Source: an uncultured Acidimicrobiaceae bacterium (GTDB lineage Bacteria > Actinomycetota > Acidimicrobiia > Spongiisociales > UBA5794). From it: a stretch of 28,150 nt of DNA. Shown piece by piece: positions 2,250-25,724 of this stretch. The notes under the pieces are model-generated. The model was given only the letters and a program-made list of their open reading frames with translations. It had not been told where the DNA came from and did no database searches. The stretch spans positions 1-28,150 of the forward strand of contig CAYTWC010000001.1 of NCBI GenBank assembly GCA_964441975.1, in the 5' to 3' direction. Every line of letters begins with the position of its first letter. The stretch's first letter is position 1. The translations under genes and the position numbers were made by a program.

Positions 2250-4097
2250 CTACGGGAGATCTCCGAAACGGCCCGCCACCGGTAGGAGCGCGGACGAACC
2301 AGCGTCCATCCACGCATCAGCGTTCCCTGCCGAGTTGTGATACCGAACGTAGAGTCTTCGGGTCGAGGGGCGGAACACGCCCGGAGAGTCATGGCCGTTC
2401 GCGTTCCAGTCTCCGGTTACGAATCTGTCATTCGGATTCCCGAAGATGAACGAGGCGTGCGCGACACCTTGCGTATGGGCGTTGCGGAGATACACGAGAC
2501 CGGTCGATGTGCGATACAGACCGAACGTGTCGATTCCGTCGCCGTCGAAGTCTCCGGCGAACGGGACGTCCCCGGGGTTCCCGAAGAGATAGTCGGTCGT
2601 GGCCTTGCCAAGTCCCTGGTCGGCGCTCCCGAGCTTGTCGATGACGTAGAACCTGCCTGACGATGGTCGGTAGAGACCGACGGTGTCGCAACCGTCGCCG
2701 TTGAAGTCTCCTGCAAGAGGCACGTCACCCGGATTGCCGAAGTAGAACGTGATGTCGGCAACACCCTGTGTGTTCGAGTTCCTGAGGTACACGTAGCCGT
2801 CCGATCGGCGATACAGACCCGGTGTGTCGATACCGTCGCAGTCCCAATCACCCATGAATGGTGCGTCCCCCGGATTCCCGAAGTAGAAGGTCTTCGCATC
2901 GCTTTCGATGTCGGTGATCCACCATCGGCCGGTCGTCGGATCGACGAGGCCCGGCGAATCACCACCCGGCACCCCGACGTAGACCGACGGGGGTGTATCC
3001 GAGATGATCGAATTGACCACGACGGGGAACCCGCTCTTTGCGATGATGAAGAACCCGGGGTACCCCTTCGTCTCGAAGTCGTCCGAGGGATTGTCGACGA
3101 TCACCGAGTCCGTGACGTAGAGCTCGCCCGTGCGGTTGTTCGACACATAGAACACACCACCGCCGCCGGCGCGGGCGTGGTTGCGCTGGATCCTCGTACC
3201 TTCGAGGCGAAGCGTGTATGTGTTGCCGTCAAGGGCGATCGCCCCACCGTTTCCACCTCCCGGTGTGCCCGGCTTCGCGGGATTGGCACCCCAACCGGTT
3301 GTGTCGTTGTCGGTCAGCAGGCTGTTGATGATCGTCCACGACACACCGATGCTCGACAGTGCACCGCCGTTCGAGCAAACGTTTCCGAGGCCCGGTTCGC
3401 CACCGAACGTGCTGTTCACCACGTACACCGGCTGTGTGTTGTATTGGCTGAACACACGGACGGCGCCGCCTCCGACGTCGGGACCGGTGTCGGCACAGAC
3501 GTTGTTGAAGAATCGCGAGTTGACGATCTTGAAACGGCCGCCTCTGACCCAAATGGCGCCACCGCCATCGTATTCGTGCTCACCCTTCGAATTTCCGTTG
3601 ATGAAAGTGAGGTTCTGGACGGTCAGCTCCGGGTACTGCTGGTTCTGGCAATGGGGGGTCGTCCATACCTGCGCCGGATCACAGGTGTTCATGTAGAGGA
3701 TCCGGACAGCGTTGCGACCGTTGAGCGTGACTTTGCCACCGCCGTCGATGACGACCTTGTTCGATGCGTCGTTGAACACCTTTGCGGTCGCATACATGTC
3801 GATGGTCACCGGCGCCGGACCGCAATCGAACGTGATGACCCCGCCCTGGGCGACCGCGGCGACAACCGCTGCTGACGTGCAGGACGCCGGAGACCCGTTG
3901 CCGATGACGTGGTCGGGGTTCGTCGAGTCCTCTGCTTGACCTGCGGCAGGAACCGGTGAGAACCCGTCCGGGTTCCCCGCGGGCGGCAACGCGTCCGCTG
4001 GCTGTGCACACGCGAGCAACCACAGGACGACGAGCGCAACAAGCGCCGCGCCGACGCTGAGACGTCGACCGTTGAAGGTCAATCGTTGTACATGCAT
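2250..4097 (-). CDS. Secreted protein: pectin-lyase-like beta-helix (GGA[I/L/V] repeats) fused to a C-terminal FG-GAP-like beta-propeller
   Basis: N-terminal basic plus hydrophobic signal (RRLSVGAALVALVVLWLLACAQPADA). Repeated GGGAIW, GGGAVR, NGGALS, NGGAIA, GGGGVF motifs. C-terminal about 230 aa with repeats FGNPGD-x-P-x-x-GD[WF]-x-x-DG-x-D-T-x-G-LYR. Confidence 0.85.
   Translation of the reverse strand: MHVQRLTFNGRRLSVGAALVALVVLWLLACAQPADALPPAGNPDGFSPVPAAGQAEDSTNPDHVIGNGSPASCTSAAVVAAVAQGGVITFDCGPAPVTIDMYATAKVFNDASNKVVIDGGGKVTLNGRNAVRILYMNTCDPAQVWTTPHCQNQQYPELTVQNLTFINGNSKGEHEYDGGGAIWVRGGRFKIVNSRFFNNVCADTGPDVGGGAVRVFSQYNTQPVYVVNSTFGGEPGLGNVCSNGGALSSIGVSWTIINSLLTDNDTTGWGANPAKPGTPGGGNGGAIALDGNTYTLRLEGTRIQRNHARAGGGGVFYVSNNRTGELYVTDSVIVDNPSDDFETKGYPGFFIIAKSGFPVVVNSIISDTPPSVYVGVPGGDSPGLVDPTTGRWWITDIESDAKTFYFGNPGDAPFMGDWDCDGIDTPGLYRRSDGYVYLRNSNTQGVADITFYFGNPGDVPLAGDFNGDGCDTVGLYRPSSGRFYVIDKLGSADQGLGKATTDYLFGNPGDVPFAGDFDGDGIDTFGLYRTSTGLVYLRNAHTQGVAHASFIFGNPNDRFVTGDWNANGHDSPGVFRPSTRRLYVRYHNSAGNADAWMDAGSSALLPVAGRFGDLP
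2253..2952 (-). repeat. About five FG-GAP-like/DxDxDG propeller-blade repeats (protein level)
   Basis: FYFGNPGDAPFMGDWDCDGIDTPGLYR; FYFGNPGDVPLAGDFNGDGCDTVGLYR; YLFGNPGDVPFAGDFDGDGIDTFGLYR; FIFGNPNDRFVTGDWNANGHDSPGVFR; a partial final copy LPVAGRFG. Confidence 0.85.
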
Positions 4098-4823: not shown

Positions 4824-7800
4824 TCAGTTGCCGACGATCCCGGCGGCGGTGCGGTGCGCCTCGATCGACTCGAGGTATGAGCGACGGTGGGACGGATCAC
4901 TGATCCGCGCGGCTCGTGCCGCAACACGCTCGGCGGTGAGTCTGCGCAGCTGAGTGGCCCGCTCTGGATCGACGTGGTCGATGACCTCGATGCATCGGAG
5001 CAACGAGACCGTCGTCTCGACCGCACCCTCGAACATGTCGTCGCCCTCATCCTCAAGCACTGAATCGACCAAGGCGACGGCGTCTGCCACGTCGCCACGT
5101 CGGAGCATCGCGGTAGCGCACGCTGCCCTCGACTCGTTCGCCAGATGATGTTCTCCGAGTTCGGTGCGGAGATCCGCCGCCTCGCCAAGAGCTTCGGAAG
5201 CGAGGTTGTATCGCTCGAGATCGAGCAGGCAGACGCCGACACCGTGCAAGTCGTACGCCTCACCTCTCCGACGCCCGATACGGCGGTCGATCGCCAATGC
5301 CTCACGGTACAGGATCAGCGCATCATCGGGATAACCCATCGCCCGCCGGGTCGCCCCGAGATTCCCCTTGCTTATGGCGATTCCCCACGCGTCATCCATC
5401 CGTTCTCTGATGGCAAGCGCAGCGGAGTACAACTCCATGGCAACCCCGTAGTCGCCGACCGCCCACGCCGTACCGCCAGCGTTGTCCTTGTGGTCGCCTT
5501 CGCCCATCAGATAGCCGATATCGGCGCTGCGTGCTGCACCTGCCTCATGCATGGTCCTCGCTTCCGAGTAGTCACCCAATGCAAAGAGAGCGGAACCCAG
5601 GTTGTTGAGGGCTCGGATCTCGTCAGTCACATTTCTGAGCGAACCGAACATGTCGGCGGCAGACCGGTGGAGCGATACCGCCCTCTCGAAGTCGCCTCCA
5701 TCCCATGCGATTCCTCCAAGGAAGTCATCCACGGATGCGACCCCTGATGCATCGCCGATTTCTCCATAGAGCGAACGTGCCTCCTCGGCGTGGCTCGACG
5801 CCCTGTCGTTGTGCCCCCGGTGTCTGGCCAGTTGTGCACGGAGGAACGCCAGCGAAGCGCGGTCTGACACGTGCAGCGAGGCATCGGGCGCAGCGAGGGC
5901 CCTTGCGACGACCTCCTCTGCCTCTGCATACGAACCATGCGCCGAGAGCAGCCGTGCACGGAGGATCGACAACTCTGCGGCGATCGTAGGGTCGGTGGAT
6001 TCCATCTGCTCCATCGCCGCCAGGTCGAACTCCTGTGCATTCCTGTCGCCGACGATGTCGTGGACGCCGAACCGCAGCCGCAGAATCTCGAAACGTCGGT
6101 CGGGGGCGTCGTCGCCGACGAGCGCCAAAGCCCTGTCAAGATGATCGATCGCTTCCGCATTGGCGTACCGACTCGATGCCGCCTGTGCTGCGATGACATA
6201 GTGTGCGACAGCGTCGGACGCCAGTCCTGCCCGGTCGTAGTGGAAAGCTAGTTCGGCGGCCGTGCGCTCGTGCGACCCGTGGACCTGCTCGATCGCCCGC
6301 GCGGCGCTTTCGTGGAGAATGCGGGCCTCGGCGTGGGGAAGCATGCCGTACGCGGCATCGCGGACGAGGAGATTGCGGAACTTCGCCGACATGCCCGAGT
6401 CATCGAGATCCCACAGTCTCGCCTCGACTGCGGTCTTGGCATCGACATCGACGCGCTCGGGCTCCTCAGTCATGACAGCCAGGACGGCCATGTCGATCTC
6501 ACGCCCGAGAACAGAAGCAACTTGAACCGTTCGGCGCACCGCCGCCGGCAGTTCGTCCAGACGTGCCACCAGAACACGCCGAAGATCGAGCGGTACGTCG
6601 GTACCCGGAAGGTCAAGACGGTTGTCCGCCAATGATGTTCGCTTGACGTACTCGAGGAGCTGTCTGGCGTAGAAGATGTTCCCGTCCGAGCGGTCCATGA
6701 CGAATTCGACGAGCTCTTCGTCCGGCGGCCTTCCGAGCAGACGTTCGGCGAGCTCGGATATCTCAGCGCTTTCGAGCGGTTCGAGCTTGACCAGGTGGTC
6801 GACCGGTACCGGTGTTGCGGCAGTCCGTGTCTCGATCAACACGGCGATGCGACGATCGGACAGGTCTTGTTGCAGTCGTGAAAGGATCTCGGCAGTTCCG
6901 CTGTCGACCCACTGTCCATCGATGACGTAGATCACCACCGGACCGGACTGCTCGATCGCAAGGACGAGGCTCTCGACCGCAGAGACGAGCACCTCGAATT
7001 TGACCTCCGGGTCGATCGTGTCCCCGACCGCACCGTCGTATCCATCGTCGAGGTCGAGTAGCTCGCCCAGGATTCGTCGGCTCCGTTTGATCTCGTCGGA
7101 CAACAACGGGGCATCGACGGCCAGCTGATTGAAGAAGCCTTCGAGTCGATCTGCGCTCTCGACCTCTCCGGGGCGACCGAAATAGCCTGCGAGGGCGTCT
7201 CGAAGCGTTGCAAGTGGTTGCGACCGGATCTGGTCTGCCTGAGCCTCCAGCCACGTTGCCGGCGGCGTTCGCGTCTCAAGCCGTTCCCGCAATGTCCCGA
7301 CGAGCCGGCTCTTGCCGCTCCCTGCCTCACCGACCACTGCAATGACCCCGGCCGATCTGTCTGACCACAGCGGTGCGATGAGGTCCTCGAGCTCATCGAG
7401 TTCGCTCCGCCGTCCAACGAAGGCTCCCCGGAACGGATCGGCACGACGAACCGGCGGAACATGGACGACACGGTGAGTCGGAACGGGATCGGCGAACCCT
7501 CGATAGGTGACCGGCCCCAGGGCGTCAAGCACCCACGGTTCATCGAGTCGGGCACGAATCTCCCCATCGACCCGAATCTCCCCCCATTCGGCGATCGAGC
7601 ACATTCGGGCGGCGAGATTGACACCCGAACCAATGCACGTGTACGACTCGTGCCGTGGCGTGCCCACGAACCCGGCGAACACCGTGCTACGCGTGACCCC
7701 GGCCCGGATACTCGCAGCCACTTCGGATCGCAGGTCAGCGAGGAACCGAAGCGCATAGCCGATGTCGCGTTCCCGACTCGTCGGCGCTCCCCAGAAGGCA

Positions 7801-8663
7801 AAGACGCGTGCTCCGTCGCCCAGGGCGGCCGGTACGACGTTGCACAGGTATCCCTGATGATGGTTGAGCAGCTGGAGCAGTCGGGCCATGGGTGAGCCAC
7901 CGTCGACACCGGGCATCTCGGCGAGCTCGACGAAGACGGACACGACATCGCGGAACTCCCCGGTGTTCGGTGCGTTCTCGAGCGTCGAAGGGTAGAAAGC
8001 GAGGGGACTGGGCGGTCCCGACCAATTCGACGGATGCGGTGGGCGCTCGACGTCGAAGGTCCTCTCGACGGTTCGGAACCCCTGACCAACCTCCGTCGAC
8101 ATCCGAAGATCGAGATGCATCGCCGAAGTCGGACCCACGACGATTGCGCCTCCAGGCGCCAGACTCTCACCGGCGAGTGCCTCGGAAACCGCGGAGCCAT
8201 AGTAGGTATAGGCACCGTTCTGCCTTCCACGACCATCTTGAGCGCGCCAGATCCTCCACTCGATGGATCCCGCCCCGACCGCACACCTCACCGTGAGCGC
8301 CGCGGAACCCGCTGGGGTCGGCAGCTCACCGAGCGATGCCAGCAATCTCAGTACATCGTCCGCGGCCATTGCCGCTCTGTGGACGGTGTCGTCGAGGTCC
8401 CCGAGAAACACAGCGACGACTCCATCACCCGCGAACTCCGAGACGAAGCCACCCCACGCGGCGACGCGGTCGACCATTGGGGAGAAGACGGTCTTGAGTA
8501 TCTGAGCTTGCGCCTCAGCACCCGCCGTACCGAAACGTTGGAGGCTGGCTGACAACTCAGTCGAACCTTCAGCATCGATGACGAGGGCCGCTCCGGTCGA
8601 GCGCCCTACGAACTGTCCATCGGCGGCCATCTGGGCGAGATGCTCGGGTACCAACCTGTGCAT
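4824..8663 (-). CDS. Tandem class III nucleotidyl cyclase + STAND (AAA_16-like) ATPase + TPR protein (soluble-AC/ADCY10-like architecture), divergent copy
   Basis: C1: LVIDAEGST...SEFAGDG. C2: RDVVSVFVEL...FWGAP...AGVTRSTVFAGFVG...YTCIGSGVNLAARM. FVGRRSEL; Walker A GEAGSGKS (7308-7331); wHTH-like KFRNLLVRDAAY; C-terminal TPRs (RALNNLGSAL, AISKGNLGA, AYDLHGVG). Confidence 0.92.
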   Translation of the reverse strand: MHRLVPEHLAQMAADGQFVGRSTGAALVIDAEGSTELSASLQRFGTAGAEAQAQILKTVFSPMVDRVAAWGGFVSEFAGDGVVAVFLGDLDDTVHRAAMAADDVLRLLASLGELPTPAGSAALTVRCAVGAGSIEWRIWRAQDGRGRQNGAYTYYGSAVSEALAGESLAPGGAIVVGPTSAMHLDLRMSTEVGQGFRTVERTFDVERPPHPSNWSGPPSPLAFYPSTLENAPNTGEFRDVVSVFVELAEMPGVDGGSPMARLLQLLNHHQGYLCNVVPAALGDGARVFAFWGAPTSRERDIGYALRFLADLRSEVAASIRAGVTRSTVFAGFVGTPRHESYTCIGSGVNLAARMCSIAEWGEIRVDGEIRARLDEPWVLDALGPVTYRGFADPVPTHRVVHVPPVRRADPFRGAFVGRRSELDELEDLIAPLWSDRSAGVIAVVGEAGSGKSRLVGTLRERLETRTPPATWLEAQADQIRSQPLATLRDALAGYFGRPGEVESADRLEGFFNQLAVDAPLLSDEIKRSRRILGELLDLDDGYDGAVGDTIDPEVKFEVLVSAVESLVLAIEQSGPVVIYVIDGQWVDSGTAEILSRLQQDLSDRRIAVLIETRTAATPVPVDHLVKLEPLESAEISELAERLLGRPPDEELVEFVMDRSDGNIFYARQLLEYVKRTSLADNRLDLPGTDVPLDLRRVLVARLDELPAAVRRTVQVASVLGREIDMAVLAVMTEEPERVDVDAKTAVEARLWDLDDSGMSAKFRNLLVRDAAYGMLPHAEARILHESAARAIEQVHGSHERTAAELAFHYDRAGLASDAVAHYVIAAQAASSRYANAEAIDHLDRALALVGDDAPDRRFEILRLRFGVHDIVGDRNAQEFDLAAMEQMESTDPTIAAELSILRARLLSAHGSYAEAEEVVARALAAPDASLHVSDRASLAFLRAQLARHRGHNDRASSHAEEARSLYGEIGDASGVASVDDFLGGIAWDGGDFERAVSLHRSAADMFGSLRNVTDEIRALNNLGSALFALGDYSEARTMHEAGAARSADIGYLMGEGDHKDNAGGTAWAVGDYGVAMELYSAALAIRERMDDAWGIAISKGNLGATRRAMGYPDDALILYREALAIDRRIGRRRGEAYDLHGVGVCLLDLERYNLASEALGEAADLRTELGEHHLANESRAACATAMLRRGDVADAVALVDSVLEDEGDDMFEGAVETTVSLLRCIEVIDHVDPERATQLRRLTAERVAARAARISDPSHRRSYLESIEAHRTAAGIVGN

Positions 8664-8669
8664 GGACCG

Positions 8670-8675
8670 ATACTA
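8670..8675 (-). promoter_or_regulatory. Putative -10 element (TAGTAT) for a leaderless transcript of the 8663 gene
   Basis: TANNNT hexamer on the minus strand 6 nt upstream of ATG 8663; no SD visible. Confidence 0.4.
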
Positions 8676-8849
8676 CAAACCGCCGGCCCGGCTGCCGAAG
8701 AAGCGCATCACCGTATTGGTACGCCAAGTGGAACGGATGCCAATGGACGAGCACTCTACGTAGTCGTCGAGTGACTTTTCCCCTTACGGACAGTGTTCGG
8801 TGCGACTACTGTGTGATGAGGCGGAAACTTTAGGGAAGGCGCTCGATAC

Positions 8850-11231
8850 ATGTCCAAGATCCATTCTTCGCGTCGCATGCGCTGGCTCATCGTTGCCGCA
8901 CTGGCGGCGATTCTCACCATCGGAACCATCACAATCGGCATTGCGAGCTCGGGATCGCCCGATGAGATCCGGCTTGTTCTCGACCACGGCACGAGCGAGT
9001 TCCAGTACGGATCGGAACGACAGAAGATTCGCACCGGTCACAACCAATGCAACGCAAATCCTGACAAGTATGGGGCCGGTCTCGTCACCGTCGAAACCGG
9101 GGCATACAGCTGGCACCACAAGCCGGTCGACGGAAAACTCGGCCTCGTCAATGGTGGTCTCGGCGTCAGCGCGACCGGATACTGGTGGGAGATCGCATGT
9201 GGCAAGATCGACTACTGGGGATCAGGCAAGTCCGAGTCCATCTCATTCGGAGTCGGACCCGCGATCAACAACCAAGTATTCACCTACGTCGACTTCGACT
9301 TGAGTGCGAAGCACGACTCCAGAGTGCGATTCGACTTCTATCAGGGTGACACGATCGTAGGAACCCAGATCACCGATCTCGAAAGCAGCGCAAGACACTC
9401 AGAGTCGAACAAGGGACACGACTGGCACCACGACAAGTACCGAGTCCTTGCGTTCCCGACCGCACCCGACGGTCCGCCGACAATGACGCCCCCGGAAACC
9501 ATCGTGCCGTTCGATCGGATCGTGGTATCCGCAGCTAAGGGTGCGGTGTCGGTCGAGGGCGGATCAAACTGGGGCAAGGAGTACAACAACTCGGACAAGG
9601 GACGCCCGACCGTCTTTCATCTGACGACGTCGATCGCAGAGATTTCTGTGGATGCATCGGTTCTCGGGTACCCGGACGACGATCTCGGCTTCGTGGAAGC
9701 AGGAACGACGCTTGACTGGAAGTACGCCGTCACGAACACAGGTGATCTCCCACTGACGAACATCAACGTCATCGACAGCACCGGACTGACCATCTCCGGA
9801 CCGTCCGGCGACGACGGTGACAACATTCTGTCCGCCGCCGAGACCTGGTACTACACGGCTTCGAGCCCTGCGGTCATGAGTGCACCGGGAGGCGGCGGGG
9901 AGACCCACGAGATCACGGCCACCGGCCAGTCGGCGGATGACGGTGTGTCTGCGACAGACGAGATCACCTACTTCGGAATGTCAGCATCGATCGAGATGGA
10001 CAAGACGACGGAGGGATCCGATGACGGAGGCGTCTACTCGGGGCCGGGAGACGACGTGCTGATCAACGCCGGCGACACCGTCACGTGGACCTATCACGTC
10101 ACCAACACCGGAAATGTCCCTCTGACCATTTCCGTCGAGGACAACCCCGAGGGGTCGGCGAGCTGCCCATCGGGTTCACTCGCACCGGGGGCATCGGTGG
10201 ACTGCTCGCTGACCGCAACCGCGGACGAGAGCCCTGGCGAAGCGCTTGCGGACGGGACGTATGAGGACGGATACTCCAATTCAGCGATCGCAACCGGCAC
10301 GCACGGGCCGACCGAAACCAGCGTTGAATCGACAAGCGACGAATCAGGCTATTTCGGTATGAATCGATCCCTCTTCATCGAGGTGACGAACAACGGTGTT
10401 GGGACACCTCCCGTCGTATCCGATCCGGAGGTCGTCTGGACGGTCTTCGCACGGAACGACGGCAACGTCGAGGTCGAGGTGATCGTCGCGGAGGAGAACG
10501 TTCCTGACGGTGCGAGTCCGAATCAATGTGACATCGCCGAATCGCTCCTCCCGGGGGAATCCGACTCCTGTGAGATTCGGACGCCTGCAGTGGACGGTGA
10601 ACAAACGACGACGTTCACGGTTCGCGGAGAAGATCCGCTCGGCATGGTGATCGAAGAGACCAGCGGTACCGTCGGCTACTACGGCGGTCTCGCTTGCGGT
10701 GAAAGCGCTGAGAGCGGTGGACCTGATCTCACCGACACGCCGTTGGCTGGCTTCTTCGTCGGGCCATCGACGAAGGACGATTCGACGGACTGCGCTGTCG
10801 CTGTCGATATCGTCACCGAGAACGACCCCGAAGAGCCGGAACAGTCGGTGTTCCTCGGTGCACCCGTCGGCTACAGCTGGGTCGGCGTGACCGGGTTGCT
10901 GACGATCGAGTGGGACATCGAAGATCCGGCCGACGGTCTCAGGCCGACGCTCCAGACCAACGGTCTTGTGACGGAGGAGGTACCGGTGTGTGCGGGGGAT
11001 GTCGCGGTTGAGATCGCCGAACCCGCCCCGGGTGACTTCATGTACACGTTGATCGACAACCCGGTCGGTGACGGGAGCTATCCGAATGCGACCGGCGGAG
11101 GTGATGTCTGTCTGGTACTCCACACCACGCGGACGATCAACTACGACAACGGTGGAACACCGGAGGTGAAGACACTCACGACTGAGGTCTTCTACATCTT
11201 CAACGATCCACGACTCAGCCGCCCACGCTGA
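8850..11231 (+). CDS. Large secreted or membrane-tethered protein with three tandem DUF11/DUF7507-like Ig-fold repeats
   Basis: N-terminal RRMRWLIVAALAAILTIGTITIGIASS. Repeats GTTLDWKYAVTNTGDLPLTNINVID, GDTVTWTYHVTNTGNVPLTISVED and EVVWTVFARNDGNVEV, each ending in Y[FY]G. Acidic, Cys-containing C-terminal domain. SD-like GGAAGG upstream. Confidence 0.85.
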   Translation: MSKIHSSRRMRWLIVAALAAILTIGTITIGIASSGSPDEIRLVLDHGTSEFQYGSERQKIRTGHNQCNANPDKYGAGLVTVETGAYSWHHKPVDGKLGLVNGGLGVSATGYWWEIACGKIDYWGSGKSESISFGVGPAINNQVFTYVDFDLSAKHDSRVRFDFYQGDTIVGTQITDLESSARHSESNKGHDWHHDKYRVLAFPTAPDGPPTMTPPETIVPFDRIVVSAAKGAVSVEGGSNWGKEYNNSDKGRPTVFHLTTSIAEISVDASVLGYPDDDLGFVEAGTTLDWKYAVTNTGDLPLTNINVIDSTGLTISGPSGDDGDNILSAAETWYYTASSPAVMSAPGGGGETHEITATGQSADDGVSATDEITYFGMSASIEMDKTTEGSDDGGVYSGPGDDVLINAGDTVTWTYHVTNTGNVPLTISVEDNPEGSASCPSGSLAPGASVDCSLTATADESPGEALADGTYEDGYSNSAIATGTHGPTETSVESTSDESGYFGMNRSLFIEVTNNGVGTPPVVSDPEVVWTVFARNDGNVEVEVIVAEENVPDGASPNQCDIAESLLPGESDSCEIRTPAVDGEQTTTFTVRGEDPLGMVIEETSGTVGYYGGLACGESAESGGPDLTDTPLAGFFVGPSTKDDSTDCAVAVDIVTENDPEEPEQSVFLGAPVGYSWVGVTGLLTIEWDIEDPADGLRPTLQTNGLVTEEVPVCAGDVAVEIAEPAPGDFMYTLIDNPVGDGSYPNATGGGDVCLVLHTTRTINYDNGGTPEVKTLTTEVFYIFNDPRLSRPR

Positions 11232-11241
11232 CACCAGGAGG

Positions 11242-14200
11242 TCAAGGAACGTTCCGTACACCCAGTGTGCGGAACGTTTCTTGCGCCTCCGACCGCTGAC
11301 CGTCCAAGACCGCCGAACTGTCGATGCGGTCGAGTGTCGCCACGAGTAGTGCTGCCTCGTAGGTGTCGCCGCGATCGCTGGCTTCGGCGAGACCACCCTT
11401 GAGGACGGACATGGCCTCATCGTGTTGTCCGTCGGCGTCGAGGATGGAGCCCCTGACTCTGGCGAGAAGCGGTGCGAAGAAGTCGAGGTGCTCGTCGGGA
11501 GCCTCGCCGGTTGCGCGGTCGAGTATGCGCAGTCCGGCAGCGGGGTCACCCGAGCGGCAAGCGGCGTCGGCGAGATGGATCGAGGCCTCAAGTATGTCGG
11601 CATCGAGTCTCAGACCGCGCGAGGCAGCTATGGCTGATTCGAGGTACTGCGACGATTGGTCGAGTTCCCCGCGCAGTCCGAACATCCTGCCGATCAGGAT
11701 GTCGACAAAAGCGATCCCCTCATCGAACCCAGATGCCGCATGTACTCGCCTCGCCGAGAACAAGGGTTCCTCGGCTTCATCAAACCGACCCTGATTCACG
11801 AGCACCTCGCCGATGTTCGAATCAGCGCGGGCGACCTCGACGACGTTGCCAACGCGATCGAGAGCGGTGCGGCCCTCTCGATAGAACTCAAGCGCCCCTA
11901 CCCAGTCACCCCGCCAGTAGGCCATGACTCCGAGGTTCTGCGCAACCTGTCCCTCCTGGTCAAGTCGCCCGTGTTCCCGGTAGATCTCCAAGGATCGCTC
12001 GGAATTGGTCGCGGCCGTCAGATCTCCGAGCATCACGAGCGAGTAGTCCAGTACAGAGAGCGCCCTGGCGAGAGCAATGTCGTCGTCGACCGACTGCGCA
12101 GCCTCGATCGCAGCAAGTGCTGCTTTCCGCGCCTCGGTCGGTTTCTGCTGCGCCTGTCTGATGACCGCTTCCATCCCGATCGCGTCAGCCCTCTGCTTGC
12201 GCATCGCCGGGCTGTCGATCGACTCTGCGAGATTCCGTGCTCGGGTCGCCTCGCTGAGCGCGGCCGAATATCTGCCCGCCCGTTCCTTTGCACTTGCGCG
12301 TTTGAGAAGGATCGCAGCCTGCTGCTCGGGATCGTCGCGAGCCCATTCCGACGCGCGTCGATAGGCGTCGAGCGCGGCATCGAACTGGCCGAGCTGCTCA
12401 CGGACATCCCCGAGATCCGTCCATACCTTCATCCGGGACGCTTCATCCACCGCGGCGAACCGTCGTGCGGCTTCAAGGGCCCGCTCGTACTGGGCTGCAG
12501 CCGACGCGTTCGCGAACAACGCCCTGTTACGGTCGGCTGCCATACGGGCATACCGCCAGGCTGCCTCGTGATCACCGGCCTCTGAGAAATGGAGGGCGAC
12601 CATGTCGGCAACGGATTCCTCATCACCTGAGGCACTCGCCAGCAAGAGCGTTCCCGCGGCAGCGTGCAGTTCCCGTCTCAGGCGATACGACAGACCCTCG
12701 TAGGCCATATCACGGACCATGGCGTGTCGGAACTCAAGCCGGGATGAACCGTCCCCATCGATGAACGCCGCCAGGGTGGTTCGCGTTGCCTCGTCGAGAT
12801 CGATCTCCTGGCTCCGGAGAAGGTCCCTCGCCACGCTGACCCGGAAGCTGCGCCCGAGCACAGACAGGTACCGCAATACTCGCCGAGCCAATGGAGGGAG
12901 GTTGTCGATCTGACTGCCGACCACGCCGTCGAGCGAGGTGGGCAACGATGACACATCGCCCGATTCCCGCACGATGGTGACGAGTTCCTCGACGAACAGT
13001 GGGCTACCGCCGGAGCGGCGCGCGATCGTTGCGACGATGTCCGGACGAAACGGAGCGGCCTCGGTGGCCGCGTGGATCAATTCGGTGACCTCGTCGTCTT
13101 CGAGCGGTCCCAAGGGGAGTTCGTCGGTCCCTTCGACGACTCCCTCCCTGCTCGTCGCCAACACGATCCACGGCCGTTCGGACAGATCCGAAGTGTCGGA
13201 GGCGATCCGCTCGAGGAGGGATGTGGTGGCGGGATCTGCCCAATGGATGTCGTCGGCGAACACGACGAGCCCCTCGGGGTACACCGTCGCGAGCAGCCTT
13301 GTGACCACGTCGACCGTGCGTTCGTGACGGAATCTCGGCTCGATCGCAAGCGTTTCGGGGGTCGGATCCAACTCGATGTGTGCGACGTCGCCGATCAGCG
13401 GTGCGAACGGTGCAAGATCCGGTGCGACCGTCGATATCGCGAGCCGAATCTGCTCTGCCATCTCGGGCTGCGGTCCACGATCGACTCCGAGGGTTGTACG
13501 GATCGCATCGCGCCATGACCGATACGGGTTCGCGGACCCGTATGGCTCGGACCGGACATCGATCCGCGGCACCGCGAGGTCGGCGACCGCTTCGGATACC
13601 AGACGGGTCTTGCCGATACCGGTCGGACCGGTCACAGTCACACCGGTTCCCGAGCTTGCGAGCACCTCCGAGATTCGTGCGAGCTCGACGGGCCGGCCGA
13701 CCATCGGTGAACGGTTCTCGAGGGAATCGCGCGTTCCGGATTCATCGCCGATCGCGTACGCCTGCACCGGCGCCGATTTGCCTTTGACGTGAAAAGGTTC
13801 GACCGGGGCCGTGCTGAAGAGCGTTGACGATCCGTCGATGACCGGCCGCGTCGCGAACACCTCACCCACCGGACTGGCGGCCATGAGCCTGGCAGCGAGG
13901 TTCACCGTGTCGCCCATGATGGTGTATGTCGAGCGCTCGGACGTGCCGACCTCGCCGGCGAACACGTCGCCCCGATTGACCCCAACACGGGTCTGGAGCG
14001 GAGTCGAGACGTCGACGATGCGACGTGCGGCTCGGAGCATGCGGCCGTCCTCGTCGACCCGGGTCCTCGGGACACCCGCCACCAGGATGATCTTGAACGA
14101 GTTCCGGTCGACGTCGGTAGCAAGAAACGTGACTTCTTCCTCGTCCGCGATCGCCATCACGGCCGACACGAACTCGGCTATGGCGGCCGCGGTGGCCGCG

Positions 14201-14991
14201 ATCCCTGTGGTTACGACGAGATCGTCGACCCCCGCCGCCTTGACGAATGCGACCGTCGCCTGCCGGTGCTCCGAGTCGGGCGTTCCCGCACCGAGGAACG
14301 GACGCAACGCCGTCGGGATGAGGTCGTCCACCTCCCCACCGGTTGACCGATCACGACCCGTTGACTCGATCGGCGGAACGCGCGGTGTCCTCCAACGCAG
14401 CAGCCATCCGTCCCCCTTGGCCGCGGATGCCGAACCGGAAGGCAACAGGGCCCGGGTGGAATCACTGACGACGATCTCGCCCGCCTCCGCGATGCCCTCC
14501 ATTTCGGTGACCCGAGAAGCAGCGGCGCCGCCGACGATCAACTCCACGTGGGATCCATCGGCTCGGAACAGATGAACCGGACCGGTGTGCACACCTTGGG
14601 ACATCCGCAGCGGAACCCGACCGACGGAGGTCGGGATCTCGGCAGCGATCCGCAACGCAGACCGCATCTCGACGGTCGCCGACGCTGCCTGCACTGCATG
14701 ATCGTCTCCCTCGAACAGGAGCAGGAGCGCGTCGCCACCGTACTTGACGAGGCTCCCACCTCGTCGCGCCGCGAGGTCCAGCATGTCGCCGAACACCCGA
14801 TTGAGGATCTCGGTCAGCTCCTCGGCACCAACTCGGCCGAGTGTCGCAAGTTTCTCTGAAAGCGCTGTGAACCCTGAAATGTCGACAAAGCACAGCGTGC
14901 CCTCGACTGTCTTCCATATCTGTTCCGGATCGGTACCCCAGTCGCGCAGGTGTACCGACGCGAAACGATCGAGATTCGGGGTGAGATCCAC
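11242..14991 (-). CDS. Tandem class III nucleotidyl cyclase + STAND ATPase + TPR protein (soluble-AC-like architecture)
   Basis: C1: LCFVDISGFTALSEKL...GAEELTEILN...VKYGGDALL. C2: RQATVAFVK...GVNRGDVFAGEVG...YTIMGDTVNLAARLM. MVGRPVEL; Walker A GPTGIGKT; Walker B FADDIHWAD; EFRHAMVRDMAY; C-terminal TPRs. GTG start with SD GGAAGG. Confidence 0.94.
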   Translation of the reverse strand: MDLTPNLDRFASVHLRDWGTDPEQIWKTVEGTLCFVDISGFTALSEKLATLGRVGAEELTEILNRVFGDMLDLAARRGGSLVKYGGDALLLLFEGDDHAVQAASATVEMRSALRIAAEIPTSVGRVPLRMSQGVHTGPVHLFRADGSHVELIVGGAAASRVTEMEGIAEAGEIVVSDSTRALLPSGSASAAKGDGWLLRWRTPRVPPIESTGRDRSTGGEVDDLIPTALRPFLGAGTPDSEHRQATVAFVKAAGVDDLVVTTGIAATAAAIAEFVSAVMAIADEEEVTFLATDVDRNSFKIILVAGVPRTRVDEDGRMLRAARRIVDVSTPLQTRVGVNRGDVFAGEVGTSERSTYTIMGDTVNLAARLMAASPVGEVFATRPVIDGSSTLFSTAPVEPFHVKGKSAPVQAYAIGDESGTRDSLENRSPMVGRPVELARISEVLASSGTGVTVTGPTGIGKTRLVSEAVADLAVPRIDVRSEPYGSANPYRSWRDAIRTTLGVDRGPQPEMAEQIRLAISTVAPDLAPFAPLIGDVAHIELDPTPETLAIEPRFRHERTVDVVTRLLATVYPEGLVVFADDIHWADPATTSLLERIASDTSDLSERPWIVLATSREGVVEGTDELPLGPLEDDEVTELIHAATEAAPFRPDIVATIARRSGGSPLFVEELVTIVRESGDVSSLPTSLDGVVGSQIDNLPPLARRVLRYLSVLGRSFRVSVARDLLRSQEIDLDEATRTTLAAFIDGDGSSRLEFRHAMVRDMAYEGLSYRLRRELHAAAGTLLLASASGDEESVADMVALHFSEAGDHEAAWRYARMAADRNRALFANASAAAQYERALEAARRFAAVDEASRMKVWTDLGDVREQLGQFDAALDAYRRASEWARDDPEQQAAILLKRASAKERAGRYSAALSEATRARNLAESIDSPAMRKQRADAIGMEAVIRQAQQKPTEARKAALAAIEAAQSVDDDIALARALSVLDYSLVMLGDLTAATNSERSLEIYREHGRLDQEGQVAQNLGVMAYWRGDWVGALEFYREGRTALDRVGNVVEVARADSNIGEVLVNQGRFDEAEEPLFSARRVHAASGFDEGIAFVDILIGRMFGLRGELDQSSQYLESAIAASRGLRLDADILEASIHLADAACRSGDPAAGLRILDRATGEAPDEHLDFFAPLLARVRGSILDADGQHDEAMSVLKGGLAEASDRGDTYEAALLVATLDRIDSSAVLDGQRSEAQETFRTLGVRNVP

Positions 14992-16292: not shown

Positions 16293-17645
16293 TCAAACGC
16301 GTTCTCTTGAATGATCATCACCCACCACAACGACATCGGAAGCATCAACGGTAGCCCCGAACTCGCGCGGTTGATCGCCGGCCCGTGCGGCGCCGACCAC
16401 AAGGTAGGTCGGCACGACACCGACCCCCCGCATCGCAATCGGCCCGCGCTCTTCGACCTCGAACATCGGGACGATGAGGTCGCGCGTCTGCTCGCTCACG
16501 TGGACCCGTCCACGGATGCCGTATTCCTCGAGTCGCGACGCAACGTTCACGGTGTCCCCCCAGATGTCATAGGCGAATTTGCGGGTTCCGATCACACCAC
16601 CGGCGACAGGCCCCGAGTGGACGCCCACCCGCACAGCGAGATCCGGGAAACGCTCAGACGCCGCCGTGACGTCGATGATTGCGAGCGCGAGGTCCACCAC
16701 CTTCTGGGCGTGGTCGGGCATCGCCTCGGGGAGTCCTCCAACGGCCATGTAGGAATCACCCACTGTCTTGATCTTCTCGAGACCCCTGTCGTCGACAAGA
16801 TCGTCGTACGCCGAGAACAGCTCTCCGAGCATCGAGATGACCGTATTCGCGGAGAGCGTGGCTGCAAGCGGTGTGAACCCGATGATGTCAGCGAACATGA
16901 CCGAAACGGATGGAAAGTCATCCGCGATCTGGGTTTCGCCGTTCCTGAGACGATACGTCACTGATTCAGGAAGGACGTTGAGTAGCAGACGCTCGGACTC
17001 TGCGCGTTCGTCCTCGAGATGCTGCGCCTGCTCCTCGATCACGAGTCGTTGGTGCCACGACCGACGCCGGTTCCGTTCGATGAGCCGCAGCCCCACAAGG
17101 CTTGCGATCCCTGCAACGACGTAGAAGAAGCAGTCCACGAGGAGGCTCCCGTCTCCTGCATACGTCGCAACGGCCGCGGCGAGCCCGAGTCCGATCACAA
17201 CGGTTCGCACGGCCGCGTGCACGAAGCGGGTCCGTGACACGAAGCCGAACAGAAACAGCAGCAGGATCGCTGCGATCGCGTAACCATGCAGAAAGGCCGA
17301 GGAAGCACCAAGCGCCAGGATCACCAATCCGTTCGCTGACGTCAAGAACGTCGCAAGCCCGTGCTGCCGATTCATCGTGGACGCCCACCGAGCTGCGATG
17401 AAGCAGGCCGTGCCTACGGCGGCCATCGTCAACCCGACCGTGACCGCTCGTTCGCTTGATATGTCGGTACCGCGTGGGAGCACGAAAGCCGCGATCGCCC
17501 AGATGATCGCTGTCGCACCGGTGATGATTCGGTACCCGGCCAGGCCGTCCGCACCTTCTTCGCGCTGATAGGCAGCTTCGAGTTCGTCGTCGAGAAACCT
17601 GAGCGTGAACGGTTGGACCGCACCGCGACGGAGCATCTCGGTCAC
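16293..17645 (-). CDS. 6-TM class III adenylate cyclase, Rv1625c/mammalian-like
   Basis: FTLRFLDDELEAAY, six hydrophobic segments, helical domain ESERLLLNVLP, then VMFADIIGFT, KIKTVGDSYM, RVGVHSGPV, AYDIWGDTVNVASRL. Both metal Asp, adenine-selecting Lys/Asp and catalytic Asn/Arg are present. Confidence 0.95.
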   Translation of the reverse strand: MTEMLRRGAVQPFTLRFLDDELEAAYQREEGADGLAGYRIITGATAIIWAIAAFVLPRGTDISSERAVTVGLTMAAVGTACFIAARWASTMNRQHGLATFLTSANGLVILALGASSAFLHGYAIAAILLLFLFGFVSRTRFVHAAVRTVVIGLGLAAAVATYAGDGSLLVDCFFYVVAGIASLVGLRLIERNRRRSWHQRLVIEEQAQHLEDERAESERLLLNVLPESVTYRLRNGETQIADDFPSVSVMFADIIGFTPLAATLSANTVISMLGELFSAYDDLVDDRGLEKIKTVGDSYMAVGGLPEAMPDHAQKVVDLALAIIDVTAASERFPDLAVRVGVHSGPVAGGVIGTRKFAYDIWGDTVNVASRLEEYGIRGRVHVSEQTRDLIVPMFEVEERGPIAMRGVGVVPTYLVVGAARAGDQPREFGATVDASDVVVVGDDHSRERV

Positions 17646-17790: not shown

Positions 17791-19524
17791 TCACGCTATG
17801 GACCGAAGATGCTCCCTGGGGAGGCTCGGCTCCTCGTCGATCGGTTCGTGTGTCGCACGACCCGGGAGCGTGACCGAGAAACAGGCTCCGCCGAGCAGCT
17901 CGGATGTCCGGTACCCGGTCGAGCCGCCGTGGGCCTCGGCGATTGCGGCGACGACCGCCAAACCGATTCCTGACCCCGGGGTGGTTGCGTTGAGCCTGTT
18001 CGGGCCCCGATCGAAGCGATCCCAGATCCTGACCTCGTGCCGACGAGGGACACCCGGCCCGTCATCGTGCACCTCGAAGGTCACGTCGGAACCATCCGAG
18101 ATGATCCGCATGATTCGCTCGGGACCCCCGTATCTGGCCGCGTTGGTCAGAAGATTGACGAGGACCTGCTGCATCCGGGCGTGATCGGCGAAGACGACGA
18201 GGTCGTCGCTTCCCTCGATCTTGACCGTTTCGACCCCGATGTTGGACGCAAGCACGGACGCCTCCGTGAGCTCTTTAACGGATACAGCTTCGACGTCGAG
18301 ATCGAGACCGCCGTCGGTTCCGCGTGCCAGCATGATCAGATCCGAGACGATCGTGGACATGTAGTCGGCCTGCTCCTGGATGATCCCGACCATTTCGACC
18401 TGATCAGGTTCGAGACGATCCCTGTCCTCGCTGAGGATGTCCACATAGCCGACCACAGCCGTGAGCGGCGTACGAAGCTCGTGAGAGATTGTCGTCACCA
18501 ACAGGTCGCGCTGCTGTTCGATCGTCGCGCGGTTGTCGAGGATCAGGAGCGCCTGGCGTGCGATGACCAGCAACCCCACGAGAATCATCGCCCCGAGCAG
18601 AATGCGGTTGCCCGCGGCATCCGCACCGGTGGCCAGCTCGACCATGAACACAGCGAGCATCATGAGCGCCGGGACGTTGGGCGCGATCTGAGTCCACAGC
18701 GGTGGATTGCGGTCGGCATATTCACGCGTAACGGATGGCTTGCCCACAAAGGAAGCCGATGCCACGAAGAAGCCCATAGCGAGGAGATTGATCCAGTACA
18801 GCGGATTCGCATCCTGGAATGAACCTGACTGCGCCGACGCAAACAGGCTGATGTCGCCGAGGACCTGGAAGGATACGGCGACCGCGAACAGCGCGACCCG
18901 AACGTCGAACCGATGACGCGATCGTCGCAAGAGCACGGTCATCGCGACCGTCAGGACGACCAGGTCGAGGAACGGGTAGAACGCACCGATGGTTCTCGTG
19001 AGCAGCGACGCATCGGCGAGGCCAGACGTCATGTCCGACAGGAGAAGGACCCAGGCGAGCGCGGCGATCGAGACCGCCCCGATCAGACCGTCGAGGAACA
19101 TTCGAGCGCGTTGGGTCGTGGATCCTTCAGCGTGGGGAAGGGCCGACGCCCCGAGAATGACCAACACATACGTCGCGAGGAAGAACAGGTCGGTCCACCC
19201 GAACGCGGGAGCGTCGCCCTGGACGAAGTAGACGACGGCGACGACGAACACCCCGAGGGACGCCGATGCCATGCCGAAACCGATGAGCGACCAACCCGTC
19301 CGTTCGCGACCGTCGAGGGTACGAGCCCGGGAGATGAAGAGTCCGCCGGCGACACCTGCACCGAACATGACTCCGATAGCACCGGCAGCGTCGGCTGCAT
19401 CCTTCGAGCCGAGGATCGTGATCAACCCACACAGGGCGAGAAAGGCGAACACGCCGAGCGCAAACCGTCCGAACGGGACGGTGGTCGTCGATTTGCCGCG
19501 ATGAAAGGTGGTTGTCTGCGTCAC
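17791..19524 (-). CDS. Sensor histidine kinase with a large polytopic (about 9 TM) membrane input domain
   Basis: H-box TISHELRTPLTAVVGY; N-box QVLVNLLTNAARYG; G1 VHDDGPGV; G2 GSGIGLAVV. Membrane region with PAFGWTDLFFLATY, FLDGLI, FYPFLDL and LGDISLF motifs. No receiver domain. Confidence 0.93.
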   Translation of the reverse strand: MTQTTTFHRGKSTTTVPFGRFALGVFAFLALCGLITILGSKDAADAAGAIGVMFGAGVAGGLFISRARTLDGRERTGWSLIGFGMASASLGVFVVAVVYFVQGDAPAFGWTDLFFLATYVLVILGASALPHAEGSTTQRARMFLDGLIGAVSIAALAWVLLLSDMTSGLADASLLTRTIGAFYPFLDLVVLTVAMTVLLRRSRHRFDVRVALFAVAVSFQVLGDISLFASAQSGSFQDANPLYWINLLAMGFFVASASFVGKPSVTREYADRNPPLWTQIAPNVPALMMLAVFMVELATGADAAGNRILLGAMILVGLLVIARQALLILDNRATIEQQRDLLVTTISHELRTPLTAVVGYVDILSEDRDRLEPDQVEMVGIIQEQADYMSTIVSDLIMLARGTDGGLDLDVEAVSVKELTEASVLASNIGVETVKIEGSDDLVVFADHARMQQVLVNLLTNAARYGGPERIMRIISDGSDVTFEVHDDGPGVPRRHEVRIWDRFDRGPNRLNATTPGSGIGLAVVAAIAEAHGGSTGYRTSELLGGACFSVTLPGRATHEPIDEEPSLPREHLRSIA

Positions 19525-19564
19525 CCATCGTTTATCGGCGTGATCTCCGGTCAGGTGTAGGAGT

Positions 19565-20839: not shown

Positions 20840-21004
20840 GGCTTGTCCGCGTCTCCTGACCTCGCTTCTGCGGAATGGCGACCCTACCGCGAATGTATCC
20901 ATGTCCGTGGGATTACGGCGAAACGGTCGCCTTGTGGGCGCCACGGTCGCCCCTACACTCCTGTGACCGCAGCCCACGTGACGGCATGCCCATCAGGAGT
21001 TCCG

Positions 21005-25569: not shown

Positions 25570-25576
25570 ACCTCAC

Positions 25577-25605: not shown

Positions 25606-25724
25606 GCCGGATTCAGACAGAACGGAGACCTTCGACCAGCATGGGATGCTCACCCGATCGGACCCATTCGATAGCGCCGATTGACGGCTCTACGCTGCGA
25701 GTCCGATCAACGCGTTGGGAAGCT

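What the first reader, a model, noticed from the sequence alone, without database searches (positions are those of the whole stretch)
4824..14991. Candidate system: a pair of cyclase-STAND-TPR (NLR-like) proteins bracketing one secreted Ig-repeat gene
Seen: the 793-aa secreted gene is divergent from one sAC-like STAND protein (186-bp shared promoter gap) and convergent with the other (10-bp gap). Established: effector-STAND-TPR is the layout of bacterial NLR-like proteins (e.g. Avs) and of signal-transducing STAND regulators, and tandem cyclase + STAND + TPR is the ADCY10-like layout. Inference: a three-gene module in which TPR ligand recognition switches on cNMP synthesis. It could act in envelope or cell-contact signalling or in defence, with the Ig-repeat protein as regulated output or partner. 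No cNMP-binding effector is visible in the window.
Basis: partly seen in the sequence, partly recalled or inferred. Interest (0 to 1): 0.72.

Follow-up and report, generated by a model that had tools for sequence, protein, structure and literature searches.

The report
sAC-like cyclase paired with secreted lectin-like protein
One of the two big cyclase-STAND-TPR genes and the secreted repeat protein next to it form a tail-to-tail gene pair conserved across many bacteria, pointing to an undescribed partner for soluble-adenylyl-cyclase-type enzymes; the second big cyclase gene is only a chance neighbour.

Summary
The three-gene module is not supported.

Gene C (11242-14991, minus) is a tandem class III cyclase + STAND NTPase + TPR protein. 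Its best solved relative is human soluble adenylyl cyclase, in both catalytic halves. Gene B (8850-11231, plus) belongs to a secreted protein family that has no Pfam model. It has a signal peptide, a CBM-like jelly-roll N-domain, a variable Ig-like stalk (CLIPPER_2/DUF7507 in B) and a conserved C-domain.

C-type genes are followed by a convergent B-family gene, with stop codons abutting or overlapping (local median -4 bp):
- In 49 of the 57 Acidimicrobiales genomes (of 301 sampled) that have the family; the other 8 sit at contig ends.
- In 37 of 56 assessable GTDB-wide loci by HMM, plus at least 7 remote homologs.
- Outside the order, in Longivirga aurantiaca (a cultured strain), Ornithinibacter, Nanopelagicales and proteobacterial MAGs.

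Gene A (4824-8663) is a 26%-identical deep paralog. Its orthologs have no such partner, and the congeners G008 and G010 keep C+B without A.

No defence-system signature was found. Relatives carry cNMP-binding effectors beside C. How C and B are coupled is unknown. The scan's earlier notes were all on this same window.

The parts
11242..14991 (-). Gene C: sAC-like class IIIb tandem cyclase (C1 about 14404-14910, C2 about 13732-14274) + STAND NTPase (AAA_16, about 13186-13701, Walker A GPTGIGKT) + TPR sensor (about 11245-12594). This is the conserved anchor of the pair.
   Evidence: Pfam. Human sAC is the best PDB match for both halves. D37, D87, K300, T357, N364 and R368 are invariant and K83 nearly invariant in 15 orthologs. 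Orthologs of 65-68% identity in G008 and G010.
8850..11231 (+). Gene B: secreted partner. Signal/anchor helix (about 8868-8948), CBM-like N-domain (about 8961-9587), stalk of CLIPPER_2/DUF7507 Ig-like repeats (about 9642-10685), conserved C-domain (about 10677-11213).
   Evidence: Pfam. Family HMMs for the N- and C-domains. AF2 models. Structural match of the N-domain to 9q5u_A at Z 12.4 and to CBM29 and other CBMs. Nearly invariant Cys pairs.
11229..11244 (.). Tail-to-tail junction: the stop codons of B and C are 10 bp apart and no terminator-like hairpin lies between them. Abutting or overlapping stops are conserved across the family.
   Evidence: Sequence. Terminator scan. Gap distribution has median -4 bp, mostly -40 to +50.
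4824..8663 (-). Gene A: paralogous sAC-like cyclase + STAND (Walker A GEAGSGKS) + TPR of a separate, partner-less clade. Juxtaposed to B only in this genome and not part of the conserved unit.
   Evidence: 26% identity to C. Orthologs of 49-52% identity in 4 of 301 order genomes, all in another family. No B-family gene in their neighbourhoods. Separate clade. Keeps D30, D80, T342, N349 and R353 but has E at the sAC-K95 position.
8664..8849 (.). 186-bp divergent intergenic region between A and B. It holds B's promoter region and is specific to this genome's arrangement.
   Evidence: Sequence. One weak sigma-70-like match on the minus strand only. The best CRP-box match upstream of B has 3 or more mismatches.

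Best explanation
The real unit is a two-gene cassette, C plus B. A does not belong to it. C is a cytoplasmic cyclase of the soluble-adenylyl-cyclase type: a tandem C1-C2 class IIIb catalytic core fused to a STAND NTPase switch and a TPR sensor. It most likely makes cAMP when a ligand bound by the TPR/STAND part switches it on (inferred from the family, not shown here).

B is exported. Its CBM-like jelly-roll N-domain and conserved C-domain, with conserved cysteine pairs, are separated by a lineage-variable stalk of Ig-like domains. This gives it the look of a small surface lectin or adhesin.

The two genes are kept tail to tail with touching or overlapping stop codons across Acidimicrobiales. 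They appear to have moved together into other Actinomycetota and into Proteobacteria. I therefore infer that they act in one pathway.

Because the two proteins lie on opposite sides of the membrane, I judge the coupling to be indirect. Either B captures or releases an envelope- or glycan-derived ligand that C's TPR domain senses inside the cell (MalT-like logic with cAMP as the output), or B is the surface output of the cAMP signal. With no terminator between the genes, convergent read-through would add a transcriptional link.

Shown: domain make-up, conserved catalytic residues, fold of B, and conserved adjacency. Inferred: cAMP synthesis, regulation, and the direction of coupling.
For: Adjacency:
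- In 72 assessable loci around C-type genes in the order, 36 have a B-family gene (35 at +1). All are convergent, with a median stop-to-stop gap of -4 bp.
- All 38 family members found in those loci abut an anchor.
- A genome-wide profile search found the family in 57 of 301 genomes at 1-3 matches each. By my count of the places listed, 49 of those genomes show it beside an anchor and the other 8 sit at contig ends.
- GTDB-wide, 37 of 56 assessable loci have an HMM-detected partner, always convergent.
- At least 7 more have a remote homolog (hhalign probability 98.1%, E 7e-14).
- Independent gene calls agree.

Spread beyond the order:
- Longivirga aurantiaca CGMCC 4.7317, Ornithinibacter, Nanopelagicales, a complete Pseudomonadales chromosome and a deltaproteobacterial MAG carry the pair.
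- Their anchors form one clade nested among Acidimicrobiia sequences, and 11 of 12 have the partner.

Catalysis and fold:
- sAC-equivalent D37, D87, T357, N364 and R368 are invariant and K83 nearly invariant.
- The partner fold is confident (pLDDT 84.6) and the N-domain is CBM-like.

cAMP context: cNMP-binding patatin (13 loci) and a cNMP-binding histidine kinase with its response regulator recur next to anchors.
Against: - No experiment and no RNA data exist for any member.
- No terminator was found, but no proof of overlapping transcripts either.
- Upstream regions of partner genes are not enriched in CRP boxes (4 of 37 against 71 of 680 controls). This does not favour simple cAMP-CRP control of B.
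- The adenine-selecting Lys of sAC (K334) is not matched at the aligned position. An invariant K300 nearby may substitute, so the substrate is unproven.
- Basal C-type clades lack the partner, so the cyclase can work without it.
- Related genomes are not independent samples.
Confidence: 0.6

Rival explanations
1. Three-gene module. A and C are a cooperating (possibly hetero-oligomeric) pair of NLR-like cyclases that flank and jointly control or use B.
For: Physical arrangement in this window. A and C share their architecture. A shares a 186-bp divergent region with B.
Against: G008 and G010 keep C+B (65-68% and 61-66% identity) with unrelated genes where A would be. Orthologs of A are rare, lie in another taxonomic family, and have no B-family neighbour. 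A and C belong to deeply separated clades.
Confidence: 0.06
2. Anti-phage defence system of the Avs/NLR or Pycsar kind. The TPR domain recognises a phage protein, and the cyclase makes a signal that triggers abortive infection.
For: An effector-STAND-TPR layout resembles Avs. There are weak PADLOC matches to PycC cyclases (E 5e-15 to 1e-6) and to a TPR model.
Against: The PADLOC matches are generic cyclase and TPR similarity, and B has no match. The catalytic core is sAC-like class IIIb rather than Pycsar-like. Recurrent neighbours are housekeeping cAMP-signalling genes (cNMP-binding patatin, cNMP-binding histidine kinase, PAS, MBL-fold) and a secreted lectin-like protein, not defence islands or killing effectors. 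The family is at about one copy in about half of the order's genomes.
Confidence: 0.05
3. Direct trans-membrane complex. B stays anchored by an uncleaved N-terminal helix, and its short cytoplasmic tail or helix is held by C's TPR domain. Ligand binding outside would then gate the cyclase directly.
For: Strict adjacency and apparent co-transfer. The N-terminal helix is predicted in both models. STAND regulators can be controlled by membrane-bound partners (MalT and MalK; established knowledge).
Against: The N-termini look like ordinary signal peptides: a short basic stretch, a hydrophobic core, then small residues. Their sequence is not conserved. Nothing else of B would be in the cytoplasm.
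Confidence: 0.12
4. Linkage without a shared pathway. The pair persists because the genes overlap at their 3' ends and travel together, or because one serves only as an antisense or termination element for the other. B would be an ordinary adhesin unrelated to cAMP.
For: Stop codons overlap or abut with no terminator. No CRP-box enrichment. The stalks are variable and adhesin-like.
Against: The partner family was found next to these cyclases in every genome where its surroundings could be assessed. The pair has been retained over anchor divergence down to about 36-40% identity and across phyla. Passive linkage is unlikely to survive that long.
Confidence: 0.15

Closest known systems
Mammalian soluble adenylyl cyclase, full-length isoform (ADCY10, sACfl)
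   Same: Tandem C1-C2 class IIIb core followed by a P-loop STAND region and helical repeats. It is the best PDB match for both halves (E 1e-36 with the family profile). The metal Asp pair, the Lys equivalent to K95, Thr in place of the substrate Asp, and the Asn/Arg pair are conserved. For sACfl too, no regulator acting through the C-terminal region has been found (PMC12802110).
   Different: Bacterial, about 1250 aa against about 1600 aa. The K334-equivalent Lys is not aligned. It has a conserved, convergently encoded secreted partner gene, for which I know of no eukaryotic counterpart.
Bacterial bicarbonate/CO2-responsive class IIIb cyclases, including sAC-like enzymes (Kobayashi, Buck & Levin 2004, cited as ref. 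74 in PMC3085406; PMC2613629)
   Same: Class IIIb signature (Thr replacing the substrate-binding Asp, PMC2613629). That sAC-type domain structure exists in bacteria is already known.
   Different: Those reports concern the enzymes alone. I found no description of a linked secreted protein family. Bicarbonate response was not tested here.
MalT (STAND transcription activator of the maltose regulon)
   Same: STAND NTPase followed by a TPR-like sensor. Sub-threshold TPR_MalT matches occur in orthologs (43.5 bits against a cut-off of 45), and NCBIfam gives a weak MalT hit for A. The logic of a cytoplasmic STAND sensor tied to extracytoplasmic carbohydrate-binding proteins is similar.
   Different: The output is a cyclase rather than a LuxR-type HTH. 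No inducer is known and no transporter is consistently linked.
Mycobacterium tuberculosis Rv0386/Rv1358/Rv2488c-type cyclases (cyclase-ATPase-TPR-LuxR HTH; from my own knowledge)
   Same: A class III cyclase fused to a STAND-type ATPase and TPR in Actinomycetota.
   Different: Those have a single cyclase domain and a C-terminal HTH. A and C have tandem sAC-like domains and no Pfam HTH match.
Fibrillar adhesins with CLIPPER/CLIPPER_2 stalks (PMC12617251)
   Same: B has a signal peptide, an N-terminal binding-type domain and a stalk of CLIPPER_2 (DUF7507) repeats. Relatives swap the stalk for cadherin-like/Big_9 or SdrD_B domains.
   Different: B is short (793 aa; most relatives are about 410 aa with no stalk). 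It has no LPXTG or other known anchor, carries its own conserved C-domain, and shows obligate linkage to a cyclase gene.
PDB 9q5u, Aeromonas salmonicida putative carbohydrate-binding module and split domain
   Same: Best structural match of the partner N-domain: Z 12.4, rmsd 3.6 A, 150 residues aligned, 23% identity; Foldseek E 5e-6.
   Different: No sequence-level match to any PDB chain. The function of 9q5u is itself only putative.

Membership tests
Class III nucleotidyl cyclase (PF00211) | Significant match to the catalytic-domain profile | tested here: met
   C scores 80.6 bits with two stretches. A scores 31.4 bits (C2 half only). Cut-off is 21.9.
sAC-like / class IIIb tandem cyclase | Two cyclase domains in one chain forming a C1-C2 pseudo-heterodimer | tested here: met
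   Human sAC aligns to residues 29-189 and 241-372 of the C-family profile. A aligns more weakly in both halves.
sAC-like / class IIIb tandem cyclase | Two metal-binding Asp in C1; Asn and Arg in C2 | tested here: met
   C has D37, D87, N364 and R368, invariant in 15 orthologs. A has D30, D80, N349 and R353, invariant in its clade.
sAC-like / class IIIb tandem cyclase | Thr in place of the substrate-specifying Asp (PMC2613629) | tested here: met
   T357 in C (YT[IV]MGD) and T342 in A.
sAC-like / class IIIb tandem cyclase | Lys equivalent to sAC K95 (bicarbonate site) | tested here: met
   C has K83, nearly invariant. A does not meet this feature: it has E76 and its clade has E/Q/G at that position.
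sAC-like / class IIIb tandem cyclase | Adenine-selecting Lys in C2 (sAC K334) | tested here: inconclusive
   The profile alignment puts a non-Lys residue opposite sAC K334. An invariant K300 lies a few residues further on in the hairpin. No coordinates were available to settle it.
STAND NTPase with TPR sensor | P-loop NTPase of the AAA_16 type followed by a helical arm and TPR repeats | tested here: met
   AAA_16 and TPR_12 are above cut-off in A and C. Walker A GxxxxGK[ST] is present in both. The Walker A GK is invariant.
Avs / NLR-like or Pycsar defence systems | Match to a curated defence-system protein model and a defence-type effector or neighbourhood | tested here: not met
   PADLOC gives only weak generic PycC and TPR hits and nothing for B. 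The neighbours are signalling genes.
MalT family | MalT-type TPR region plus a C-terminal LuxR HTH | tested here: not met
   TPR_MalT is only sub-threshold in orthologs. No HTH domain was found in A or C.
TOMM kinase/cyclase fusion (TIGR03903) | Score above the curated equivalog cut-off | tested here: not met
   145 and 158 bits against a cut-off of 705.75; the match is partial.
Fibrillar adhesin (for B) | Signal peptide, adhesive tip domain, repeat stalk, cell-wall or membrane anchor | tested here: inconclusive
   Signal helix and CLIPPER_2 stalk are present. The tip is CBM-like by fold only. No LPXTG or known anchor is at the C-terminus. Most family members have no stalk.
Partner family defined here (N-domain + C-domain secreted protein) | Matches to both domain HMMs and a convergent position after a cyclase-STAND gene | tested here: met
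   B has the N-domain at 7-246 and the C-domain at 610-788, and it lies convergent to C with a 10-bp gap.

The most novel reading that the evidence does not exclude
The secreted CBM-like protein is the extracytoplasmic arm of a sensing pathway that gates a soluble-adenylyl-cyclase-type STAND enzyme. It would bind or process an envelope or environmental glycan, and the resulting ligand (or B's own occupancy state) would switch the TPR/STAND module and hence cAMP synthesis. That would give the first defined physiological input for the long-unexplained C-terminal half of sAC-type cyclases.
Probability: 0.3. Interest if true: 0.78.

Novelty: new variant of a known kind. Interest (0 to 1): 0.6.

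Why it matters
Soluble-adenylyl-cyclase-type enzymes carry a large STAND/TPR region whose input is unknown even in mammals. A 2025 biochemical study of full-length sAC found no isoform-specific regulator and raised the possibility of a missing binding partner or metabolite (PMC12802110).

A bacterial branch of this family is tied to one secreted, Pfam-less, lectin-like protein family. That family has 927 clusters in 1.84 billion representative proteins. This gives a concrete, testable lead. Cultured carriers exist, such as Longivirga aurantiaca CGMCC 4.7317, so genetics and biochemistry are feasible.

The result also corrects the picture of this locus. It is a two-gene cassette plus an unrelated paralog, not a three-gene NLR-like defence module.

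Tried and rejected
- Complex prediction of the TPR region of an ortholog (L032 anchor, residues 790-1259) with its own partner gave no verdict (score 0.01). This is neither support nor evidence against binding.
- CRP-box search (TGTGA-N6-TCACA, 2 mismatches or fewer) upstream of partner genes showed no enrichment: 4 of 37 against 71 of 680 controls.
- Sequencing-run search listed no RNA holder, so expression and convergent read-through could not be examined.
- Foldseek on the whole B model returned only generic tandem-Ig matches. Protein Atlas features gave no usable lead. The partner profile against PDB sequences gave no hit.
- The search for related loci with the partner alignment and with C alone failed. 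It succeeded with the anchor alignment.
- The second cyclase/DUF7507 convergent pair at 25269-28024 was checked. The DUF7507 protein has a 61% ortholog in G010, but no cyclase lies within the 1.5-kb flanks, so I treat it as coincidental.
- The defence reading was checked with PADLOC and rejected.
- The Kobayashi 2004 paper could not be read.
Full report
**Observation.** The window is the whole 28,150-bp contig C1 of a 2.4-Mb, 84.5%-complete MAG. By the titles of related records it belongs to the Acidimicrobiia, order Acidimicrobiales.
- A at 4824-8663 (minus, 1279 aa)
- B at 8850-11231 (plus, 793 aa)
- C at 11242-14991 (minus, 1249 aa)

The A/B gap is 186 bp (divergent) and the B/C gap is 10 bp (convergent).

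**The two large proteins.** The best solved relative of C is human soluble adenylyl cyclase, and the match covers both catalytic halves (E 5e-20 alone, 1e-36 with a 15-sequence profile).
- In those 15 orthologs the sAC-equivalent residues D37 and D87 (metal) are invariant and K83 (sAC K95) is nearly invariant.
- T357 (the class IIIb Thr that replaces the substrate Asp, PMC2613629), N364 and R368 are also invariant.
- The adenine-selecting Lys (sAC K334) is not matched at the aligned column. An invariant K300 sits a few residues away, so substrate choice remains unproven.
- Walker A motifs are intact in A and C.
- Neither protein has an HTH, and both fall far below the TIGR03903 cut-off.
- A is only 26% identical to C. 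Its clade keeps D30, D80, T342, N349 and R353 but has Glu at the K95 position and no conserved K300 equivalent.

**Is the trio a module?** Full-length B orthologs were found in two of the ten congeneric genomes searched, G008 and G010 (66% and 61% identity). In both, B lies convergent to a C ortholog (65% and 68% identity), and unrelated genes occupy the place of A. In G010 a sortase gene precedes B. Close orthologs of A (49-52% identity) turned up in only 4 of 301 sampled genomes of the order. All 4 are in another taxonomic family, and more distant relatives of 33-40% identity occur in 3 further genomes. None of the seven fetched A-type neighbourhoods contains a B-family gene. In a maximum-likelihood tree the A clade (8 rows, SH-aLRT 100) is separated from all 132 C-type sequences. 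A is therefore a paralog that happens to sit beside B in this genome.

**The conserved pair.** C-type genes (the 'anchors') occur in 152 of 301 sampled genomes of the order. I fetched 82 neighbourhoods, called ORFs and clustered them.

The gene immediately downstream of the anchor is, again and again, a convergent gene of one family. Its compact form is about 410 aa. Longer forms carry an inserted stalk:
- B itself carries CLIPPER_2 repeats.
- Others carry Big_9/cadherin-like domains.
- Others carry SdrD_B domains.

Counts from the order:
- Of 72 anchors with at least 1.3 kb of downstream sequence, 36 have the partner, 35 of them at +1.
- All are convergent, with a median stop-to-stop distance of -4 bp.
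- A genome-wide profile search found the family in 57 of 301 genomes at one to three matches each.
- By my count of the places listed, in 49 of those genomes the partner lies beside an anchor. Three of these were confirmed by fetching the flank.
- In the other eight genomes the relevant flank is cut by a contig end.
- The only stray hit is a C-domain fragment with an internal stop (G250:C68).

Counts across GTDB species:
- The anchor alignment retrieved at least 563 relatives.
- Among the best 80 loci, 37 of 56 assessable ones have an HMM-detected partner, always convergent.
- Of the other 19, 13 have a convergent gene with a signal-peptide-like N-terminus, most of them 390-470 aa. Among other genes in those loci, 63 of 370 have such an N-terminus.
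- Seven of those 13 align as one subfamily that is a remote homolog of the partner (hhalign probability 98.1%, E 7e-14). An eighth (L180) looks the same by sequence but was left out of that alignment.

Further support:
- Independent gene calls on metagenome contigs show the same arrangement.
- The pair is present in Longivirga aurantiaca CGMCC 4.7317, Ornithinibacter, Nanopelagicales, a complete Pseudomonadales chromosome and a deltaproteobacterial MAG.
- Their anchors form one clade nested among Acidimicrobiia sequences, and 11 of 12 have the partner. This fits transfer of the two genes as a unit.
- Basal C-type clades lack the partner.

**What the partner is.** It has no Pfam or NCBIfam match outside the stalk, yet it has 927 clusters among 1.84 billion representative proteins.
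- All members start with a basic stretch followed by a hydrophobic stretch.
- Two Cys pairs are nearly invariant. Both features fit export.
- AlphaFold2 on the compact form is confident (pLDDT 84.6, pTM 0.75).
- The N-domain is a jelly-roll beta-sandwich. Its best match is PDB 9q5u_A, a putative carbohydrate-binding module (Z 12.4, 23% identity over 150 residues). CBM29 and other CBMs follow at Z 8-9.
- The C-domain was barely tested in the fold searches, because the N-domain dominated the listed matches.
- CLIPPER_2 domains are isopeptide-type stalk domains of surface adhesins (PMC12617251).
- B therefore looks like a small surface lectin or adhesin with a lineage-variable stalk.

**Context and mechanism.** The window holds four of the genome's five cyclase genes but no cNMP-binding protein.
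- The only cNMP-binding protein found in the MAG is a cNMP-binding histidine kinase on contig C43. A response-regulator/oxidoreductase fusion and another cyclase lie next to it.
- In relatives the same kinase/regulator pair, and more often a cNMP-binding NTE/patatin phospholipase (13 loci), lie next to the anchor. In the closest relatives the patatin gene lies directly upstream on the same strand.
- MBL-fold, PAS and LtrA genes also recur there.
- PADLOC gives only generic cyclase and TPR similarity. This is a cAMP-signalling neighbourhood, not a defence island.

C has no Pfam domain beyond the cyclase, NTPase and TPR parts and, by eye, no signal peptide or membrane segment. I therefore take it to be cytoplasmic. 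B is exported, so I consider direct contact unlikely and the coupling indirect: either a MalT-like ligand relay or surface output of the cAMP signal. The 10-bp junction has no terminator-like hairpin, so convergent read-through is plausible, but I could not test it because no RNA run was listed. CRP boxes are not enriched upstream of partner genes. A complex prediction gave no verdict.

**Comparison and novelty.** sAC-type cyclases with STAND regions are known in bacteria and animals (Leipe 2004 and Danot 2009 as cited in PMC12802110; Kobayashi 2004 as cited in PMC3085406). What I did not find described is their conserved, apparently co-transferred pairing with this secreted family. Because the regulator of the sAC C-terminal region is still unknown (PMC12802110), the pair offers a testable lead.

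**Verdict.** I class it as a new variant of a known kind, with interest 0.6.

Noticed in passing
window 4824-26762: Four of the five class III cyclase genes detected in this 2.4-Mb MAG lie on this one 28-kb contig: A, C, 16293-17645 (strong single domain) and 25269-26762 (weak). Two of the three DUF7507 proteins are also here.
   Followed up: partly
window 25269-28024: A second convergent cyclase/DUF7507 pair: a membrane cyclase at 25269-26762 (+) and a 388-aa DUF7507/DUF11 protein at 26858-28024 (-). The DUF7507 protein does not match the partner-family HMMs. Its 61% ortholog in G010 has no cyclase within the 1.5-kb flanks, so the pairing looks coincidental.
   Followed up: yes
L095 (G000 contig C43) 4834-9486: The only cNMP-binding protein found in the genome is a cNMP_binding + HATPase_c histidine kinase (6482-7843, -). 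It is followed by a response-regulator/pyridine-nucleotide-disulfide-oxidoreductase fusion (7840-9486, -) and lies next to an alpha/beta-hydrolase-cyclase fusion (4834-6171, -). The kinase/regulator pair recurs next to C-type cyclases in relatives (L030, L032, L033).
   Followed up: partly
L015, L016, L018 and L029 (10118-12172) and others: A cNMP_binding + NTE P-loop + patatin phospholipase gene lies in 13 of 83 anchor neighbourhoods. In the closest relatives of C it is directly upstream on the same strand. No second cNMP-binding domain was found in G000 (84.5% complete).
   Followed up: partly
window 17791-20977: The aminotransferase (alpha-oxoamine-synthase-like, 19565-20977) and histidine kinase (17791-19524) upstream of C belong to clusters that recur together near C-type anchors in other genomes (L021, L048, L052).
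   Followed up: partly
L118 2206-2886 (G010): In G010 a sortase gene (PF04203) and a DUF4397 gene sit directly upstream of the B ortholog on the same strand. B has no LPXTG-type signal.
   Followed up: no
L124, L148 (genome contigs): Short contigs labelled Kiloniellales and Verrucomicrobiales carry anchors 54-62% identical to C over the cyclase region, closer than many Acidimicrobiia. They may be binning errors in those MAGs.
   Followed up: no
L103-L117 and many loci: MAG contigs break unusually often at or just beyond the partner/anchor junction, so the pair is frequently split between contigs.
   Followed up: no
window 2250-4097 and 20993-21793: ORFs of 615 aa and 266 aa have no Pfam match. 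In many relatives, giant (about 2000 aa) beta-helix secreted proteins flank partner-less C-type cyclases.
   Followed up: no
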